Source of the DNA: Enterobacteria phage ID18 | Direction: 5' to 3' (one strand) | DNA: 5,486 nucleotides | Sequence record: NC_007856.1 | Shown here: positions 4 through 5,486 of the stretch, piece by piece | Numbering within the stretch: position 1 is the first letter of the stretch | Layout: each line of letters begins with the position of its first letter | The notes under the pieces: model-generated | Told to the model about the DNA's origin: nothing | Databases searched by the model: none | The model's input: the letters and a program-made list of their open reading frames with translations, nothing else | Program-made: the position numbers and the translations under genes

Positions 4-30
4 TTGACTAACTATCTCTTCACTTAACAT
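4..30 (+). promoter_or_regulatory. Candidate promoter pA (gene A promoter) in the H-A intergenic region
   Basis: -35-like TTGACT at 4-9; weak -10-like TAACAT at 25-30 with a 15-nt spacer. Position matches where phiX174 carries a TTGACA-containing promoter just upstream of the gene A hairpin. The -10 is poor, so the call is tentative. Confidence 0.3.
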
Positions 31-56
31 GCCTCCAAATCAACGGAGGCTTTTCT
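31..56 (+). terminator. GC-rich hairpin (GCCTCC / 8-nt loop / GGAGGC) followed by a TTTTCT run; candidate intrinsic terminator that also contains the gene A Shine-Dalgarno
   Basis: Seen directly: 31-36 GCCTCC pairs perfectly with 45-50 GGAGGC (6-bp stem, loop 37-44), followed by TTTTCT at 51-56. As I recall it, phiX174 has a near-identical GCCTCCAAATCTTGGAGGC-TTTTTT element immediately before the A start codon. Confidence 0.5.
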
Positions 57-58
57 AC

Positions 59-1729
59 ATGCAACAACACTTAACCGCTTCGGACTTCTACCGCAAACCA
101 ATAATCGACGCTATCAAACCTCTTGTCGAAACTGCTGGTATGTCTGTGCTAACTCAATCTCCTAACCTCCGTATCTGGAAACAGTGCAACACTCGCGTAA
201 AACTGCTGGAAGAAATTCTAAATCATTACACTAACGGTATTCGCCGTGATGATAATGGTGACTTCTTTCTCAACCCTGAATGCCAACTCGCCACTACAAT
301 TGCTTATCGTGCTCACAAAAAGGGCCATAACCCTCGCTTTAAACAATACCCTGAGTCATTCACTCTGGACGATATTATTACTGGCAAACCAATTCCTCAG
401 ACTGCCCCTTCTGAGCTTCAACTTACTGATGAAATCGGTGAGGATTACCGCCTTACTGTACTCTCCATAATCGAAGAGTTAGACGAATGCTACAACGTGC
501 TCGGACAACTTGATATTAATAACACTATAGACCACAAACCTATCGGTAACGCCAAATGGGACTTAATGTATGAAAAACCTGTCTATAAACACTGGTATGA
601 ACTGGTATCAAAACGACCCCTTAAATCAATCAGAGAGGACTACAACTATGCAAAGGCTAAGGGTACTAAAGATGAGTGCTCGAAAATCCTTGAGGAATCC
701 ACCATGAAATCCCGCCGTGGCTTTACCGTTCAGAGATTGATGAATGCTATGCGTACTGCCCACACTGATGGCTGGTATGTTGTATTCGATACTCTCACCT
801 TAGCTGATGATCGTATTAAGGACTTCTATGCTAACCCCAATGCTCTTCGTGACTATTTCCGTGATATTGGCCGTATGGTTCTCACTGCCGAGGGTCGTTC
901 GGTCCATGATTCATCTTCGGACTGCTATCAGTACTTTTGTGTGCCTGAGTATGGCACCCAGCATGGCCGTTTACACTTTCACGCAGTGCATCTTATGCGC
1001 ACACTTCCTTTGGGTTCTCTCGACCCTAACTTTGGTAAGCTGGTGCGTACTAATCGGCAAATAAATAGCTTGCAAAACACATGGCCTTATGGTTACTCTA
1101 TGCCCATCGCAGTCCGGTATTCTCAGGATGCTTTCTCTCGCGCTGGATGGCTCTGGCCTGTCGATACAAAGGGTGAACCCCTTAAATCCACCTCGTATAT
1201 GGCTGTAGGCTTCTACGTTGCTAAATACGTTAATAAAAAATCTGATGTTGACATAGCCGCAAAAGGCTTAGGGAATCAAAAATGGAACGCTACATTAAAA
1301 ACGCAGATGGCTCTTTTACCAAAGAAACTATTTCGAATTCGAATGAGCCGCAACTTCGGGATGAAACTACTCCCAATGACGACGCTGACCGCGGAGTGTT
1401 TAATCCAACTGACCCAAGTGGGTTACGACGTGACCCCGTTCAACAACATCTTGAAGCAGAACGCCAAGAAAGAGCTACGATTGAGGCTGGCAAAGCAATC
1501 TGTAGCCGACGTTTTGGAGGCGCAACCTGTGACGACCAATCTGCTAAAATTCATGCGCAATTTGACCCGAACAATCGGAGCGTCCAGCCTACAGAGTTTT
1601 ATCGCTTCAATGACGCAGAAATTAGCAAATACGGATATTTCTGATGAAACTAAAAACTACGTTACTAATGCAGGAATTGCTGTTGCTGACTTACGACTTA
1701 AATCGAAGTGGACTGCTGGTGGAAAATGA
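59..1729 (+). CDS. A: Replication initiation protein A (rolling-circle HUH endonuclease; viral-strand nickase/ligase)
   Basis: Long ORF (frame 2) strongly similar along its C-terminal two thirds to phiX174 protein A as recalled. HUH motif HFHAVH is encoded at about 974-991 and the catalytic YVAKY tyrosines at 1214-1228. Start placed at ATG 59, which has a GGAGG Shine-Dalgarno at 45-49 with 9-nt spacing; the track's ATG at 29 has none. Stop TGA at 1727-1729. Confidence 0.85.
506..535 (+). other. Viral (+) strand origin of rolling-circle replication (30-nt ori core, protein A nick site)
   Basis: Sequence CAACTTGATATTAATAACACTATAGACCAC is identical to the conserved phiX174/G4 origin 30-mer as recalled. 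Protein A is expected to nick between G512 and A513. It lies inside gene A, as in all phiX-like phages. Confidence 0.85.
704..1729 (+). CDS. A*: Protein A* (in-frame internal initiation product of gene A; 341 aa)
   Basis: In-frame ATG at 704 encoding MKSRRGF..., the same N-terminus as phiX174 A*, preceded by GAGG at 692-695. The predicted length of 341 aa equals the phiX174 A* length as recalled. Expression is inferred by homology. Confidence 0.65.
1070..1099 (+). promoter_or_regulatory. Candidate promoter pB (inside gene A, upstream of gene B)
   Basis: -35-like TTGCAA at 1070-1075 and a weak -10-like TACTCT at 1094-1099 (18-nt spacer), about 180 nt upstream of the B start. Position and sequence resemble the phiX174 region TTGCAAAATACGTGGCCTTATGGTTACAGT. 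Weak -10, so low confidence. Confidence 0.3.
1282..1644 (+). CDS. B: Internal scaffolding protein B (120 aa), encoded entirely within gene A in a different frame
   Basis: 120-aa ORF in frame 1 nested in A. The product has the conserved [20 protein letters not shown] and EFYRF...GYF C-terminal motifs of phiX174 protein B. Stop TGA at 1642-1644. Confidence 0.9.
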
Positions 1730-1814
1730 AGAACTTCAATCTCAACTTAAAGAACTCGAGGGCGTCTTACTTCGCAACCTTTCGCCATCATCTCAACGTG
1801 GTAGCAAAGACTGA
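1644..1814 (+). CDS. K: Protein K (56 aa; small membrane-associated protein modulating burst size)
   Basis: Not in the ORF track (short). ATG at 1644-1646 overlaps the B stop (TGATG). Hand translation gives [56 protein letters not shown] (56 aa), closely matching phiX174 K (QELLLLVYELNRSGLLAENE). Frame 0, overlapping the end of A and the start of C; stop TGA at 1812-1814. Confidence 0.8.
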
Positions 1815-1995
1815 CGCGCTTGATGAAGAAAAATGGCTCAATATGATGGGCGCTCTTCTTAAGGACTGGTTCCGCTATGAACAACATTTCGTACATGGCA
1901 AAGAATCAATGCTTGACATTCTAAATGAACGTGGCCTATTATCCACCTTGCCAAATGGCTTAACTTACAAAGGAATCAAAAATGAAAGCAAATGA
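1726..1995 (+). CDS. C: Protein C (89 aa; switches stage II to stage III DNA synthesis and assists ssDNA packaging)
   Basis: ATG at 1726-1728 overlaps the A stop TGA at 1727-1729 (ATGA). The product [21 protein letters not shown]...[13 protein letters not shown]...[13 protein letters not shown] matches phiX174 protein C. The track ORF 1708..1995 begins at an upstream GTG and is probably over-extended. Confidence 0.85.
1913..1942 (+). promoter_or_regulatory. Candidate promoter pD (inside gene C, driving D-E-J-F-G-H)
   Basis: Perfect -35 TTGACA at 1913-1918 and -10 TATTAT at 1937-1942 with an 18-nt spacer, about 40 nt upstream of the D start. The homologous phiX174 sequence GCTTGACATTTTAAAAGAGCGTGGATTACTATC is the known pD location. 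Confidence 0.55.
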
Positions 1996-2443
1996 GAACG
2001 CAGTAGCCTTTCAAACCGCTATTGCCTCCATCAAACTTATTCAGGCATCTTCTGTTCTTGACCTGACTGAGGACGATTTCGAATTCTTAACTCGTGACCG
2101 TGTATGGATTGCAACTGACCGCTCCCGTGCTCGCCGCGCTATTGAGGCTTGCGTTTATGGAACTCTGGACTTTGTGGGATACCCTCGCTTTCCTGCTCCT
2201 ATTGAGTTTATTGCTGCCGTCATTGCTTATTATGTTCATCCCGTTAACATTCAAACGGCATGTCTTATTATGGAAGGCGCTGAATTCACCGAAAACATCA
2301 TTAATGGTGTCGATGCCCCGGTTAAAGCCGCTGAACTCTTCGCGTTTACCTTGCGTGTACGCGCCGGAAACACTGAGCTTATTACTTACGCAGAAAACAA
2401 TGCGCGTGAAAAACTGCGCGCTCAAGGAGTGATGGATGTCTAA
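1982..2443 (+). CDS. D: External scaffolding protein D (153 aa)
   Basis: ORF with AAGGA at 1970-1974 about 7 nt before the ATG. The product is nearly collinear with phiX174 protein D (FQTAIASIKLIQAS..VLDLTEDDF, YGTLDFVGYPRFPAP, IAAVIAYYVHPVNIQTACLIMEGAEFTENIINGV). The start overlaps the C stop at 1993-1995. Confidence 0.92.
   Translation: MKANENAVAFQTAIASIKLIQASSVLDLTEDDFEFLTRDRVWIATDRSRARRAIEACVYGTLDFVGYPRFPAPIEFIAAVIAYYVHPVNIQTACLIMEGAEFTENIINGVDAPVKAAELFAFTLRVRAGNTELITYAENNAREKLRAQGVMDV
2157..2432 (+). CDS. E: Lysis protein E (91 aa; single-gene lysis, MraY inhibitor), nested in gene D in the +1 frame
   Basis: ATG at 2157 with GAGG at 2144-2147. The product MELWTLWDTLAFLLLLSLLLPSLLIMFIP... 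has the hydrophobic N-terminal transmembrane segment with the conserved Pro21 and the ...RLPCVYA... C-terminal region of phiX174 E. The track ORF starts at an upstream GTG (2094) and is over-extended. Confidence 0.85.
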   Translation: MELWTLWDTLAFLLLLSLLLPSLLIMFIPLTFKRHVLLWKALNSPKTSLMVSMPRLKPLNSSRLPCVYAPETLSLLLTQKTMRVKNCALKE

Positions 2444-2516
2444 AAAATCTATTCGCCGCTCTGGTGGCAAATCTAAAGGTGCTCGCCTCTGGTATGTTGG
2501 CGGCACACAATTCTAA
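2436..2516 (+). CDS. J: DNA-binding/packaging protein J (26 aa; small basic core protein)
   Basis: Not in the ORF track (short). AGGAG at 2425-2429, 6 nt before ATG 2436. Hand translation gives MSKKSIRRSGGKSKGARLWYVGGTQF (26 aa), highly basic with the C-terminus GARLWYVGG.QF shared with phiX174 J. The short length is G4-like (phiX174 J is 38 aa). Stop TAA at 2514-2516. Confidence 0.8.
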   Translation: MSKKSIRRSGGKSKGARLWYVGGTQF

Positions 2517-2522
2517 TCTCTA

Positions 2523-2544
2523 AGGGGCTTCGGCCCCTCTATTT
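2523..2544 (+). terminator. J-F intergenic hairpin AGGGGC-TTCG-GCCCCT followed by CTATTT; candidate intrinsic terminator / mRNA-stabilising stem-loop
   Basis: Perfect 6-bp GC-rich stem (2523-2528 with 2533-2538) closed by a TTCG (UUCG-type) tetraloop, followed by a T-containing tail. The analogous position in phiX174 carries the post-J terminator. Confidence 0.55.
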
Positions 2545-2555
2545 AAGGATACAAA

Positions 2556-3836
2556 ATGTCTAACGTACAAACTTCCGCTGAACGTATTCCGCATGACCTC
2601 TCACATCTGGTATTCGAAGCTGGTAAAATCGGACGCCTTAAAACTATCTCCTGGACTCCTGTTGTCGCTGGTGATTCTTACGAAACTGAAATGGTAGGCG
2701 CTATTCGTCTTTCTCCTCTCCGTCGTGGTCTGGCTGTCGACTCTCGCGTCGACGTCTTTACTTTCTATATCCCTCATCGTCATGTCTATGGTCAACAATG
2801 GATTGACTTTATGAAGACTGGCGTTAACGCTACTCCTCTGGCTCCGGTAACTTGTTCCTCTGGCTGGGATTCTGCTGCCTATCTTGGCACTATCCCGTCA
2901 ACTAATTTGAAGGTTCCTAAATTCCTTCATCAATCTTATCTCAATATTTACAACAACTACTTTAAGCCGCCGTGGTCTAATGACCTCACCTATGCTAACC
3001 CATCTAATATGCCCGCTGAGGATTACAAATGGGGCGTTCGTGTCGCTAACTTAAAATCTATCTGGACCGCGCCCCTTCCTCCTGATTCATTAACTAAGCA
3101 GGATATGACTACTGGCGCTACCACTATCGATATTATGGGCCTACAAGCTGCCTATGCTAAACTCCACACTGAACAGGAACGTGACTATTTCATGACTCGC
3201 TACCGCGATATTATGAAAGACTTTGGCGGTCACACCTCCTACGACGGTGATAACCGTCCTCTGCTCCTGATGCGCTCTGAATTTTGGGCCTCTGGCTATG
3301 ACGTCGACGGTACTGACCAAACTTCATTGGGTCAGTTCTCTGGTCGCGTCCAACAAACCTTTAATCATAAAGTGCCTCGCTTCTATGTTCCTGAGCATGG
3401 CGTAATTATGACTTTATCTGTTACTCGCTTCCCTCCTACTCACGAAATGGAAATGCACTATCTCGTCGGTAAGGAATCTCTGACTTATACTGACATTGCC
3501 TGTGACCCTGCTCTTATGGCTAACCTGCCTCCGCGTGAAATTGAGGTAAAAGACCTCTTTCACTCTGCTGGTACTGGTAAATTCAAAATTGCCGAAGGTC
3601 AATGGTATCGTACTCAGCCTGACCGCGTTGCCTTCCCTTATAACGCTCTTGACGGCTTCCCTTTCTATTCTGAACTGCCGTCTAATGATATTCTCGAACG
3701 TGTACTTGTTCGAACTGATAACTATGATGAAATCTTCCAGTCTATGCAACTTGCACACTGGAACATGCAAACTAAATTTAACACTACTGTATATCGTCAT
3801 ATGCCTACCACTCGTGATGGCATCATGACGTCATAA
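2556..3836 (+). CDS. F: Major capsid protein F (426 aa)
   Basis: AAGGA at 2545-2549, 6 nt before the ATG. The product is collinear with phiX174 F along its full length (MSN.QT.AER.PHDLSHL, RLSPLRRGLA.DS, IDIMGLQAAYA.LHT.QERDYFM.RY, GTDQTSLGQFSGRVQQT, LPPREI, FKIAEGQWYR, TTRD.IMTS). Confidence 0.95.
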   Translation: MSNVQTSAERIPHDLSHLVFEAGKIGRLKTISWTPVVAGDSYETEMVGAIRLSPLRRGLAVDSRVDVFTFYIPHRHVYGQQWIDFMKTGVNATPLAPVTCSSGWDSAAYLGTIPSTNLKVPKFLHQSYLNIYNNYFKPPWSNDLTYANPSNMPAEDYKWGVRVANLKSIWTAPLPPDSLTKQDMTTGATTIDIMGLQAAYAKLHTEQERDYFMTRYRDIMKDFGGHTSYDGDNRPLLLMRSEFWASGYDVDGTDQTSLGQFSGRVQQTFNHKVPRFYVPEHGVIMTLSVTRFPPTHEMEMHYLVGKESLTYTDIACDPALMANLPPREIEVKDLFHSAGTGKFKIAEGQWYRTQPDRVAFPYNALDGFPFYSELPSNDILERVLVRTDNYDEIFQSMQLAHWNMQTKFNTTVYRHMPTTRDGIMTS

Positions 3837-3845
3837 AACAAAACG

Positions 3846-3881
3846 TTGAACGGGTACAAATTTTAATTTGTGCCTGTTCAA
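3846..3881 (+). other. F-G intergenic imperfect hairpin (about 13-bp stem including G-T/G-U wobble pairs, AT-rich loop)
   Basis: 3846-3858 (TTGAACGGGTACA) pairs with 3869-3881 (TGTGCCTGTTCAA) around the loop AATTTTAATT. It sits in the 92-nt F-G untranslated region, which in phiX-like phages holds the post-F terminator and complementary-strand priming signals. Confidence 0.4.
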
Positions 3882-3928
3882 GGTTGAACAAGCGAAGCGC
3901 GTTAGCTAACTTACTTAAGGAAATTCTC

Positions 3929-4462
3929 ATGTTTCAAACTTATCTCTCTAAACATAATTCTCCGTTAACTTCTCTGTCTATTACTGCTACAAAAACACCT
4001 GCGGCTGCTGCTCCGATTATTTCTACACCGGAGCTTAGCCGCTCTACTATTTTCGCTGGCTTAACTCTGACTGCTGCCACTACTCATTCTGGTGTCGCTC
4101 ATGTCGTTCGTATTGACGAAACCAATCCTACTGACAATCAGGTCTTATCGGTCGCCGCTTCTTTATCTGGCGTACCGTCTGATGCTATTGCTATTGCTAT
4201 TCGCTTTGAGGTCGCTGACGGTACCGTCCCTACTGCTCTCCCTGCTCTCTACTCTGCTTATCCGGTGGAATTCTTCACTTCTGGCGCTGCTCTGTCTTGT
4301 AAGGATGCCGTATCTATTCCGACGCATCCTGTTACTGCTGGTAATGATGTATATGCTGGTATTCTTATCTGGTCCAAATCTTGGTCCGCTGGTGTCGTCT
4401 CCGGCCTCTTATCTGTTAATCAGGTAAACCGTGAAACTACCGTACTCCAACCTCTTAAATAA
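3929..4462 (+). CDS. G: Major spike protein G (177 aa)
   Basis: ATG at 3929 preceded by TAAGGA at 3916-3921. The product begins MFQTYLSKHNS (phiX174 G begins MFQTFISRHNS) and ends ...SLNQVNRETTVLQPLK (phiX174 ...SLNQVIKEIICLQPLK). The track ORF starts at an upstream TTG (3884) and is over-extended. Confidence 0.88.
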   Translation: MFQTYLSKHNSPLTSLSITATKTPAAAAPIISTPELSRSTIFAGLTLTAATTHSGVAHVVRIDETNPTDNQVLSVAASLSGVPSDAIAIAIRFEVADGTVPTALPALYSAYPVEFFTSGAALSCKDAVSIPTHPVTAGNDVYAGILIWSKSWSAGVVSGLLSVNQVNRETTVLQPLK

Positions 4463-4472
4463 GGTCTAATCT

Positions 4473-5486
4473 ATGTTCGGTGCAATCGCTGGCGGTATCG
4501 CCTCCTCTCTCGCTGGTGGACTCCTGAACAAAGCATTCGGGGGCGGTTCTTCCGCTCCCCAATCTGGCGTTCAAGGTAATGTCCTCGCTACTGACAATAA
4601 TGTAATCGGTGCTAATGATGCTGGTATCAAATCCGCTATTCAGGGTTCTAATCCTCCCAATGGTCAACAAGCTGCTCCCAATGCTATATCGGGCGTTCTT
4701 GCCGATACTGGCAAAGACGCCCTATCTTCAATCACTGGCGCTGGCGTTAATAAACTTATGGAAAAAATCGGACTCTCTAAAGATGCTGCTGCTAAAGGTA
4801 AGGATACGAAAGATTATCTTGCTTCTGCGTTCCCCGAACTCAACCCGTGGGAACGTGCTGGCGCTGGTGCTTCTTCTGCTGGAATGGTTGATGCGGGATT
4901 CCAAAACCAAAAGGAATTAACTCGCATGCAGCTTGACAATCAAAAAGAAATCGCTAAGATGCAAAACGACACTCAAAAGGATATCGCTGGTATCCAGTCT
5001 GTTACTTCTCGGCAAAATACTAAGGACTCTGTGTATGCTCAAAACGAAATGCTCCAATACAACCAAAAAGAATCTATGTCACGCGTTGGCGCTATTCTCG
5101 AAAACACAAGCCTCACCAAACAACAACAAACTTCTGAAATTATGCGGCAAATGCTTACTCAGGCTCAAACCTCAGGTCAACACTTTACAAATGACCAAAT
5201 CCAAGAACTTACTCGAAAGGTCGGCGCTGATATTGATGCTGTTCGTGCTAACACTGAACGTACACATGTAGAAACGGACCGCTCTAAGCAGGAGGTCCAA
5301 AACTCTCGTTACGCTTCCTCACAAGTCGGTAAAACCGCCAAGGATGTATCAAATGTCATTAGTGACGCATCTTCTGGTATTGTTGATTATTTTCGTGGCG
5401 TTGATAAAGCTGTCGCGGATACTTGGAACAATTATTTCAAAGATGGCAAATCGGATGGGATAAGCTCAAACCATCGTACCAAATAA
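4473..5486 (+). CDS. H: Minor spike / DNA pilot protein H (337 aa)
   Basis: AAGG at 4461-4464, 8 nt before the ATG. The product is collinear with phiX174 H ([132 protein letters not shown]). Stop TAA is the last three bases of the window. Confidence 0.93.

What the first reader, a model, noticed from the sequence alone, without database searches (positions are those of the whole stretch)
2517..2555. J-F intergenic stem-loop with a UUCG-type tetraloop
AGGGGC-TTCG-GCCCCT is a perfect, very stable hairpin (UUCG tetraloops are exceptionally stable in RNA) sitting immediately after J and before the capsid gene F Shine-Dalgarno. It likely acts as a leaky terminator and/or 3-prime stabiliser that sets the ratio of J-terminated to read-through transcripts. 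The U-tract after it is imperfect (CTCTATTT), consistent with partial termination.
Basis: partly seen in the sequence, partly recalled or inferred. Interest (0 to 1): 0.35.

Follow-up and report, generated by a model that had tools for sequence, protein, structure and literature searches.

The report
Known T_J terminator hairpin of microviruses
The hairpin is real and conserved, but it is the already well-studied "T_J" leaky terminator and mRNA-stabilising stem-loop that sits between genes J and F in phiX174-type phages, so it is ordinary.

Summary
The window is a complete 5486-nt G4-like microvirus genome, 98.4% identical to coliphage WA14. The 39-nt J-F intergenic region (2517-2555) holds a perfect 6-bp hairpin, AGGGGC-TTCG-GCCCCT, at 2523-2538. 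It lies 6 nt after the J stop codon and 6 nt before the F Shine-Dalgarno sequence. The same 16 nt occur at the same place in phiX174, where the element is the canonical terminator T_J. Published work describes T_J as rho-independent and leaky, and transcripts ending there as the most stable. Across 21 distinct natural Bullavirinae sequences the stem is kept by compensatory changes in at least six stem versions. The closing C-G pair is invariant and the loop is UUCG in 18 of 21. The tail after the stem (CUAUUUAA) is weak and not conserved. The gap between stop codon and stem is always 4-8 nt, short enough for a terminating ribosome to hinder folding. At least ten laboratory phiX174 records lack the whole hairpin through a 27-nt deletion, so it tunes expression and is not essential. 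Nothing here is new. No transcript data exist for this particular phage.

The parts
2436..2516 (+). Gene J (26 codons plus stop; TAA at 2514-2516), the last gene before the element.
   Evidence: WA14 annotation at identical coordinates; sequence.
2517..2522 (+). 6-nt spacer (TCTCTA) between the J stop codon and the stem.
   Evidence: The gap is 4-8 nt in all 16 relatives measured.
2523..2528 (+). 5' arm of the stem, AGGGGC.
   Evidence: pairing probability 0.90-1.00.
2529..2532 (+). Tetraloop TTCG (UUCG in RNA), closed by C2528-G2533, giving the cUUCGg motif.
   Evidence: The loop is UUCG in 18 of 21 distinct natural relatives and the closing C-G is present in 21 of 21.
2533..2538 (+). 3' arm of the stem, GCCCCT.
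   Evidence: covariation with the 5' arm.
2539..2546 (+). Weak T/U tail, CTATTTAA (4 T in 8); predicted RNA release zone about 2544-2549.
   Evidence: The tool's terminator scan did not call it. TransTermHP-like tail score is -2.62, against -7.15 for an ideal tail and -2.72 for phiX174.
2545..2549 (+). Shine-Dalgarno sequence AAGGA of capsid gene F; it overlaps the end of the tail.
   Evidence: It lies 6 nt before the ATG; AAGGA/GAGGA is conserved in the alignment.
2556..3836 (+). Gene F (major capsid protein), the first gene reached by read-through transcripts.
1913..1942 (+). Best sigma-70-like site in the genome (TTGACA-18-TATTAT, 11 of 12), at the position of promoter P_D upstream of gene D. 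It is the likely source of the transcripts that meet the hairpin.
   Evidence: consensus match only. The position relative to D (1982) comes. The P_D to T_J transcript model is for phiX174.

Best explanation
This is the T_J element of the Bullavirinae, orthologous to T_J of phiX174 and G4.

Proposed mechanism:
1. Host RNA polymerase starts at the P_D-like (and P_B-like) promoters and transcribes D, E and J.
2. Once it has passed position 2538, the nascent RNA folds into a 6-bp G+C-rich hairpin capped by a cUUCGg tetraloop.
3. The following tract (CUAUUUAA) is U-poor, and the stem begins only 6 nt after the J stop codon. Only a minority of polymerases therefore release, at about 2544-2549. The rest read on into F, G and H.
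4. Transcripts that end there carry the hairpin at their 3' end, which blocks 3'-to-5' exonucleases and makes the D-E-J messages long-lived.

Together these effects step expression down from the scaffold and packaging genes (D, J) to the capsid and spike genes (F, G, H).

Shown here: the structure, its position, its identity to phiX174 T_J, its covariation and its dispensability. Inferred by orthology: termination and stabilisation in this phage.
For: - The hairpin is the MFE and centroid structure (-11.9 kcal/mol) and forms with probability near 1 in context.
- The window is a complete G4-like microvirus genome.
- The identical 16-mer AGGGGCTTCGGCCCCT sits at the same place in phiX174, NC16, NC51 and NC7.
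- In 21 distinct natural sequences from all three genera, the inner five pairs are paired in 104 of 105 cells. Five of seven pairs show changes on both sides. The covariation score is 0.298 against 0.090 in shuffles (0 of 500 reach it), and sliding the 3' partner lowers every measure but one: the count of further pair types is 9 at +1 against 8 in register.
- The stem versions seen are AGGGGC/GCCCCT, GGGGGC/GCCCCC, GTGGGAC/GTCCCAC, GGGCC/GGCCC, GGCCC/GGGCC, GAGCCC/GGGCTC and GGGCCC/GGGCCC.
- The loop and closing pair are conserved while the stem covaries. That is the signature of an RNA hairpin, not of a double-stranded DNA operator.
- Literature on the ortholog: T_J is rho-independent and leaky; T_J-terminated transcripts are the most stable and disrupting the structure accelerates decay.
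- The tail score equals that of phiX174.
- The strongest promoter-like site lies at the P_D position upstream.
Against: - There are no transcript data for this phage or for WA14.
- The tool's terminator scan does not call the site, and the tail is marginal.
- A mechanistic model fitted to phiX174 RNA-seq estimated near-zero termination at T_J (PMC11527146). RNA-seq coverage steps cannot separate termination from differential decay.
- At least ten laboratory phiX174 records lack the whole hairpin and were propagated on E. coli C and Salmonella, so its contribution to fitness is conditional.
- The covariation alignment was anchored on the loop, which favours the structure.
Confidence: 0.8

Rival explanations
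1. The hairpin is essentially only an mRNA-stability or processing element. Polymerase does not terminate appreciably. The 3' ends seen at T_J arise when exonucleases trim read-through or cleaved transcripts back to the hairpin, and the drop in downstream RNA abundance reflects faster decay of the F-G-H portion.
For: - The hairpin and the cUUCGg loop are strictly conserved, whereas the U-tail is not. Several alpha3-like phages have only UAUAAGGA after the stem, 2 T in 8.
- The stem is 4-8 nt from the stop codon, a position at which terminator tR2 is almost fully repressed (PMC4824070).
- Model fitting to RNA-seq gave near-zero T_J termination.
- Stabilisation by T_J is reported.
Against: - Published work classes T_J as a rho-independent terminator.
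- qPCR shows a temperature-dependent change in read-through from 68% to 34%, which the authors attribute to termination efficiency.
- Tail scores, though weak, are mostly at or beyond the usual -2.5 cutoff.
Confidence: 0.13
2. The hairpin acts at the DNA level. It would be a hairpin in the packaged or replicating single-stranded (+) DNA, or a site for the phage A/A* protein, which is reported to bind or cleave in the phiX174 J-F region and to modulate replication and packaging.
For: - The (+) strand is the viral strand, and the DNA hairpin is predicted stable (-6.9 kcal/mol, z = -2.55).
- phiX174 literature places an extra-origin A/A* cleavage site just downstream of T_J (PMC3606162) and A* binding in the J-F region.
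Against: - The window has its exact 30-nt (+) origin at 506-535, but nothing within 3 mismatches of the origin core occurs in the J-F region.
- The phiX174 ACTTGA motif is replaced here by ATTTAA.
- The stem covaries while the loop stays UNCG-type with a C-G closure, which is RNA-specific stabilisation (established knowledge on cUUCGg).
- Deleting the whole region is tolerated.
Confidence: 0.03
3. The hairpin serves translation of F. It would insulate the F ribosome-binding site from upstream structure, or become a protective 5' hairpin after endonucleolytic processing.
For: The hairpin always ends 2-7 nt before the F Shine-Dalgarno sequence in all 16 relatives measured.
Against: - In silico, the unpaired probability of the SD and AUG is almost unchanged when either arm is scrambled or the region is deleted.
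- The natural experiment, the 27-nt deletion that fuses the J stop codon to the SD, is viable.
- The close spacing is also explained simply by the extreme compaction of a 32-45-nt intergenic region.
Confidence: 0.03
4. The hairpin is a chance palindrome with no function.
For: Single-sequence statistics are weak: z = -1.53, and 31% of shuffled genomes contain a comparable hairpin somewhere.
Against: Its position in a 39-nt spacer, its conservation across three genera with compensatory changes, and the experimental literature on the ortholog.
Confidence: 0.01

Closest known systems
T_J, the J-F intergenic rho-independent terminator and mRNA-stabilising hairpin of phiX174 (also described for G4; Hayashi, Hayashi and Muller 1983, cited)
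   Same: - Same position, between the J stop codon and the F Shine-Dalgarno sequence.
- Identical 16-nt hairpin AGGGGCTTCGGCCCCT with a cUUCGg loop.
- Similarly weak tail score (-2.62 against -2.72).
- Same gene order and the same P_D-like promoter upstream.
   Different: - The tail is CTATTTAA here and TACTTGAG in phiX174. The phiX174 motif resembling the origin core (ACTTGA), reported as an A/A* extra-origin site, is absent here.
- The stop-to-stem gap is 6 nt against 4 nt.
- Activity has not been measured in this phage.
T_J of phage G4 proper (Gequatrovirus G4, ID11, NC2, WA3)
   Same: Same genus, same position, and the same tail and SD (TCTATTTAAGGATAC).
   Different: G4 has a different 7-bp stem and loop, GTGGGAC-CGCG-GTCCCAC. 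The window instead keeps the phiX174 and alpha3-like AGGGGC-UUCG version. This is the main source of the compensatory changes.
Canonical E. coli intrinsic terminators (for example lambda tR2)
   Same: G+C-rich short stem and a stable tetraloop, followed by a T-containing tract on the transcribed strand.
   Different: - Only 4 T in the 8 nt after the stem, so it is not called by the consensus scan.
- It is placed 6 nt from a stop codon, where tR2 is almost fully repressed by the terminating ribosome (PMC4824070).
- The tail overlaps the next gene's Shine-Dalgarno sequence.

Membership tests
Bullavirinae T_J (J-F intergenic terminator/stabiliser hairpin) | Lies in the intergenic spacer between the gene J stop codon and the gene F ribosome-binding site, on the transcribed (+) strand. 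| tested here: met
   J stop at 2514-2516, stem at 2523-2538, SD at 2545-2549, F ATG at 2556.
Bullavirinae T_J (J-F intergenic terminator/stabiliser hairpin) | Sequence orthology to the phiX174/G4 element. | tested here: met
   The 16-nt hairpin is identical to that of phiX174, NC16, NC51 and NC7. The flanking J C-terminus and F start align.
Bullavirinae T_J (J-F intergenic terminator/stabiliser hairpin) | The stem is maintained by selection (compensatory changes among relatives). | tested here: met
   Five of seven pairs have changes on both sides. The inner five pairs are paired in 104 of 105 cells. Covariation score 0.298 against 0.090 in shuffles, 0 of 500 reaching it. Caveat: the alignment was anchored on the loop.
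Bullavirinae T_J (J-F intergenic terminator/stabiliser hairpin) | Produces a fraction of transcripts with 3' ends at the site (partial termination). | not testable with these tools
   Known for phiX174 only. No data exist for this phage.
Bullavirinae T_J (J-F intergenic terminator/stabiliser hairpin) | Stabilises the upstream mRNA. | not testable with these tools
   Reported for phiX174 and G4 by Hayashi et al. 1983, as cited in PMC3335065. The primary paper is not held.
Canonical rho-independent (intrinsic) terminator | G+C-rich stem of 5 or more pairs with a loop of 3-8 nt. | tested here: met
   6 pairs, 5 of them G-C, loop of 4 nt.
Canonical rho-independent (intrinsic) terminator | U-rich tract immediately after the stem (5 or more T in 8). 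| tested here: not met
   CTATTTAA has 4 T in 8. The site is absent from the scan's 11 terminator-like sites. Tail score -2.62, borderline.
Canonical rho-independent (intrinsic) terminator | Far enough from the upstream stop codon to escape occlusion by the terminating ribosome. | tested here: not met
   The gap is 6 nt. tR2 is almost fully repressed at 8-9 nt and maximal beyond 30 nt (PMC4824070).
cUNCGg extra-stable RNA tetraloop hairpin | Loop UNCG closed by a C-G pair. | tested here: met
   C2528-UUCG-G2533. Among 21 relatives the loops are UUCG (18), UACG (1), CGCG (1) and UUUG (1), and the closing C-G is present in 21 of 21.
phiX174 A/A* extra-origin cleavage or binding site in the J-F region | Resemblance to the core of the (+) origin (ACTTGATATTAAT). 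| tested here: not met
   The only match with 3 or fewer mismatches is the true origin at 508-520; there is none in 2517-2555.
Any Rfam RNA family | A covariance-model match. | tested here: not met
   There is no hit in or near 2517-2555, even at E-values up to 10.

The most novel reading that the evidence does not exclude
The leakiness of T_J may be set largely by translation of J and not only by the weak U-tract. The stem begins only 6 nt after the J stop codon (4-8 nt in every Bullavirinae sequence sampled). A ribosome terminating on UAA would cover the 5' arm and prevent the hairpin from folding while polymerase is in the release zone. Termination would then report how tightly J translation is coupled to transcription. 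This would link the supply of F, G and H mRNA to J synthesis, and possibly to temperature.
Probability: 0.25. Interest if true: 0.3.

Novelty: already known. Interest (0 to 1): 0.08.

Why it matters
It matters little beyond annotation. The element can be labelled T_J in this and other G4-like genomes, none of whose records annotate it.

The comparative picture is a tidy textbook case of a weak, expression-tuning terminator/stabiliser squeezed into a 39-nt spacer:
- the cUUCGg loop and closing pair are invariant;
- the stem covaries;
- the tail varies;
- the stop-to-stem gap is fixed and short;
- loss of the element is tolerated in the laboratory.

This is useful for people who refactor or design microvirus genomes.

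Tried and rejected
- **Rfam at E-values up to 10:** nothing at the site.
- **Consensus terminator scan:** does not call the site. I kept the terminator reading only because of the literature on the ortholog.
- **A/A* origin-like site:** searched for and absent.
- **Role in exposing the F ribosome-binding site:** partition-function folding of wild type, two arm-scrambled mutants and a deletion showed almost no change in SD or AUG accessibility. I rejected this as a main function.
- **Wider sampling:** a peptide scan and a DNA-pattern scan of viral contigs, plus one metagenome scan, added only a handful of new variants.
- **Primary papers:** Hayashi et al. 1983 (PMC255335), van Mansfeld et al. 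1986 (PMC339577) and Crill et al. 2000 (PMC1460906) are not held, so their content is cited second-hand.
- **phiX174 deep mutational scan:** the stored per-nucleotide table is sorted as text and truncated before positions 965-999. Only position 1000 (tolerant) was readable.
- **Published description of the 27-nt deletion:** two literature searches found nothing.

Full report
**What the window is**

The 5486-nt window is a complete circular genome of a G4-like microvirus (Microviridae, Bullavirinae, Gequatrovirus).
- It is 98.4% identical over its full length to coliphage WA14 (DQ079909).
- Over 1356-5033 it is identical to IMG/VR contig UViG_638275834_000001.
- The WA14 annotation transfers at identical coordinates: A 59-1729, A* 704-1729, B 1282-1644, K 1644-1814, C 1726-1995, D 1982-2443, E 2157-2432, J 2436-2516, F 2556-3836, G 3929-4462, H 4473-5486.
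- The exact 30-nt (+) strand origin is at 506-535.

**The observation**

The reported range 2517-2555 is exactly the J-F intergenic spacer. Its layout is:

| Coordinates | Sequence | Role |
|---|---|---|
| 2514-2516 | TAA | J stop codon |
| 2517-2522 | TCTCTA | spacer |
| 2523-2528 | AGGGGC | 5' arm |
| 2529-2532 | TTCG | loop |
| 2533-2538 | GCCCCT | 3' arm |
| 2539-2546 | CTATTTAA | tail |
| 2545-2549 | AAGGA | F Shine-Dalgarno (overlaps the tail) |
| 2556 | ATG | F start |

- The hairpin is the MFE and centroid fold of the spacer: -11.9 kcal/mol as RNA and -6.9 kcal/mol as DNA.
- In a 205-nt context its pairs have probability 0.90-1.00.

**Is it more than chance?**

On this sequence alone the case is weak.
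- The z-score against dinucleotide shuffles is -1.53.
- In 31% of shuffled genomes a perfect 6-bp hairpin with 5 or more G-C pairs occurs somewhere.

Context changes the picture.
- Among all 24-nt windows it is the second most stable local fold.
- Ranks 2, 3 and 4 all fall in intergenic DNA, which makes up only 199 nt (3.6%) of the genome.

**Relatives**

I collected J-F regions from 53 loci: IMG/VR, JGI metagenomes and GenBank phage records.
- phiX174 and its natural relatives NC16, NC51 and NC7 carry the identical 16-mer at the same place.
- Other lineages keep a hairpin at the same place with different stems:
  - GGGGGC-TACG-GCCCCC (ID12 type)
  - GTGGGAC-CGCG-GTCCCAC (G4, ID11, NC2, WA3)
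  - GGGCC-TTCG-GGCCC
  - GGCCC-TTCG-GGGCC (alpha3)
  - GAGCCC-TTCG-GGGCTC
  - GGGCCC-TTCG-GGGCCC
  - AGGGGC-TTTG-GCCCCT
- On a loop-anchored alignment of 21 distinct natural sequences:
  - The inner five pairs are paired in 104 of 105 cells.
  - Five of seven pairs show changes on both sides.
  - The closing C-G pair is invariant.
  - The covariation score is 0.298 against 0.090 in shuffles (0 of 500 reach it).
  - Sliding the partner columns lowers every measure except the count of further pair types, which is 9 at +1 against 8 in register.
- Anchoring on the loop favours the structure. However, the unanchored MAFFT alignment places all hairpins between the conserved J C-terminus and the AAGGA/GAGGA motif.
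- The architecture is constant: a stop-to-stem gap of 4-8 nt, a stem of 5-7 bp with a tetraloop, a stem-to-SD gap of 2-7 nt, and an SD-to-ATG distance of 6-7 nt. The whole spacer is 32-45 nt.

**What it is**

It is the T_J element. Published work on phiX174 describes four rho-independent terminators, T_J, T_F, T_G and T_H, in the four intergenic regions, all below 100% efficiency.
- RNA-seq shows T_J, T_F and T_G each removing 20-40% of transcriptional current (bioRxiv 10.1101/2020.03.05.979765).
- qPCR gives 68% read-through at T_J at 37 C and 34% at 42 C (PMC3335065).
- Disrupting the T_J structure accelerates decay. PMC3335065 reports this citing Hayashi, Hayashi and Muller 1983, a study that covered both phiX174 and G4.
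- A 2026 mutational scan again lists T_J as a hairpin-dependent rho-independent terminator. It finds only 14.6% of terminator substitutions detrimental.

The strongest sigma-70-like site in the window (1913-1942) is at the P_D position. A P_D to T_J transcript of about 600 nt is therefore expected.

**How strong a terminator?**

It is probably weak.
- The tail has 4 T in 8, and the consensus scan does not call the site.
- A TransTermHP-like tail score is -2.62, against -2.72 for phiX174 and -7.15 for an ideal tail.
- The tail is not conserved. Some alpha3-like phages have only TATAAGGA after the stem.
- The stem starts 6 nt after the J stop codon. Terminator tR2 is almost fully repressed at 8-9 nt from a stop codon, because the terminating ribosome prevents hairpin folding (PMC4824070).
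- A mechanistic model fitted to phiX174 RNA-seq even estimated near-zero termination at T_J (PMC11527146).

These points keep alive the rival view that the conserved function is mainly 3'-end protection. They also motivate the translation-coupling idea given as the novel case. Both are inferences.

**Dispensability**

- At least ten phiX174 GenBank records of 5359 nt or 5339 nt carry a 27-nt deletion that removes the spacer and hairpin. These are AF176028, AF176030, AF176032, AF299300, AF299304, AF299310, AF299311 and HM775309-HM775311. The deletion fuses the J TAA directly to the GGA of the F Shine-Dalgarno sequence.
- Their isolate names and listed hosts suggest laboratory lines grown on E. 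coli C and Salmonella. No natural isolate sampled lacks the hairpin.
- One phiX174 isolate (EF380010) has a G-C to G-U change in the stem. One G4 isolate (JF719730) has an A-C mismatch.
- The element therefore tunes expression and is not essential.

**Rival functions**

- A DNA-level role as an A/A* site is reported for phiX174 just downstream of T_J. The origin-like ACTTGA motif is not present here.
- A conserved loop over a covarying stem is the opposite of what a double-stranded DNA operator would show.
- A role in exposing the F ribosome-binding site found no support in silico.
- Rfam has no family for the element.

**Verdict**

The feature is already known. Interest is low.

Noticed in passing
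window 4537-4560 (inside gene H): The most stable short local RNA fold in the whole genome is not intergenic. GGGGGCGG-UUCUU-CCGCUCCC folds at -16.3 kcal/mol and lies within the coding sequence of gene H. I did not check whether it is conserved or is a by-product of a Gly/Ala-rich coding stretch.
   Followed up: no
window 31-50 plus tail to 58 (H-A intergenic region): The hairpin GCCTCC-AAATCAAC-GGAGGC is followed by TTTTCT. It ranks third among local folds and is called by the terminator scan. Its 3' arm GGAGG is the Shine-Dalgarno sequence for gene A (ATG at 59). This is the same terminator/RBS overlap described for T_H in phiX174.
   Followed up: partly
window 3837-3928 (F-G intergenic region): There are two adjacent A+T-rich hairpins: 3852-3875 (10 bp, -10.2 kcal/mol) and 3875-3890. 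They are candidates for T_F and/or the complementary-strand origin. This genome is 5486 nt against 5577 nt for G4; I did not compare this spacer's length with G4's.
   Followed up: no
L029, L030 and hits H117-H125 (phiX174 records of 5359 or 5339 nt): At least ten phiX174 records carry a 27-nt deletion (TTGCAGGGGCTTCGGCCCCTTACTTGA) that removes the entire T_J hairpin and joins the J stop codon to the F Shine-Dalgarno sequence. The hairpin-less phage was propagated on both E. coli C and Salmonella.
   Followed up: partly
GenBank MZ417522.1 at 2271-2368 and MT947439.1 (hits H115, H93): Records named 'Mycolicibacterium phage J1' (24,953 nt) and 'Protaetiibacter phage SSC1' (5386 nt) match phiX174 J-F sequence: at 100% for MZ417522, while MT947439 hit only the window query at 73.9%, like the phiX174 records. 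This probably reflects contamination by the PhiX sequencing control or a chimeric assembly.
   Followed up: no
window 29-58: The mechanical ORF list starts gene A at ATG 29. The WA14 annotation starts it at ATG 59, just after the GGAGG of the H-A hairpin. The annotated start fits the ribosome-binding site better.
   Followed up: partly
L052 (metagenome contig NFYY01001704.1): This alpha3-like relative has a UUUG loop in place of UUCG and a different Shine-Dalgarno sequence (TAGGAG) 2 nt after the stem. It is the only natural loop variant outside the UNCG and CGCG types.
   Followed up: no
L013 (phiX174 HM753673) against the window tail: The recurrent laboratory substitution C987T in phiX174 changes the tail from TACTTGAGG to TATTTGAGG. 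That makes it resemble the G4-like tail found in this window (CTATTTAAGG) and raises the tail score from -2.72 to -3.37.
   Followed up: partly
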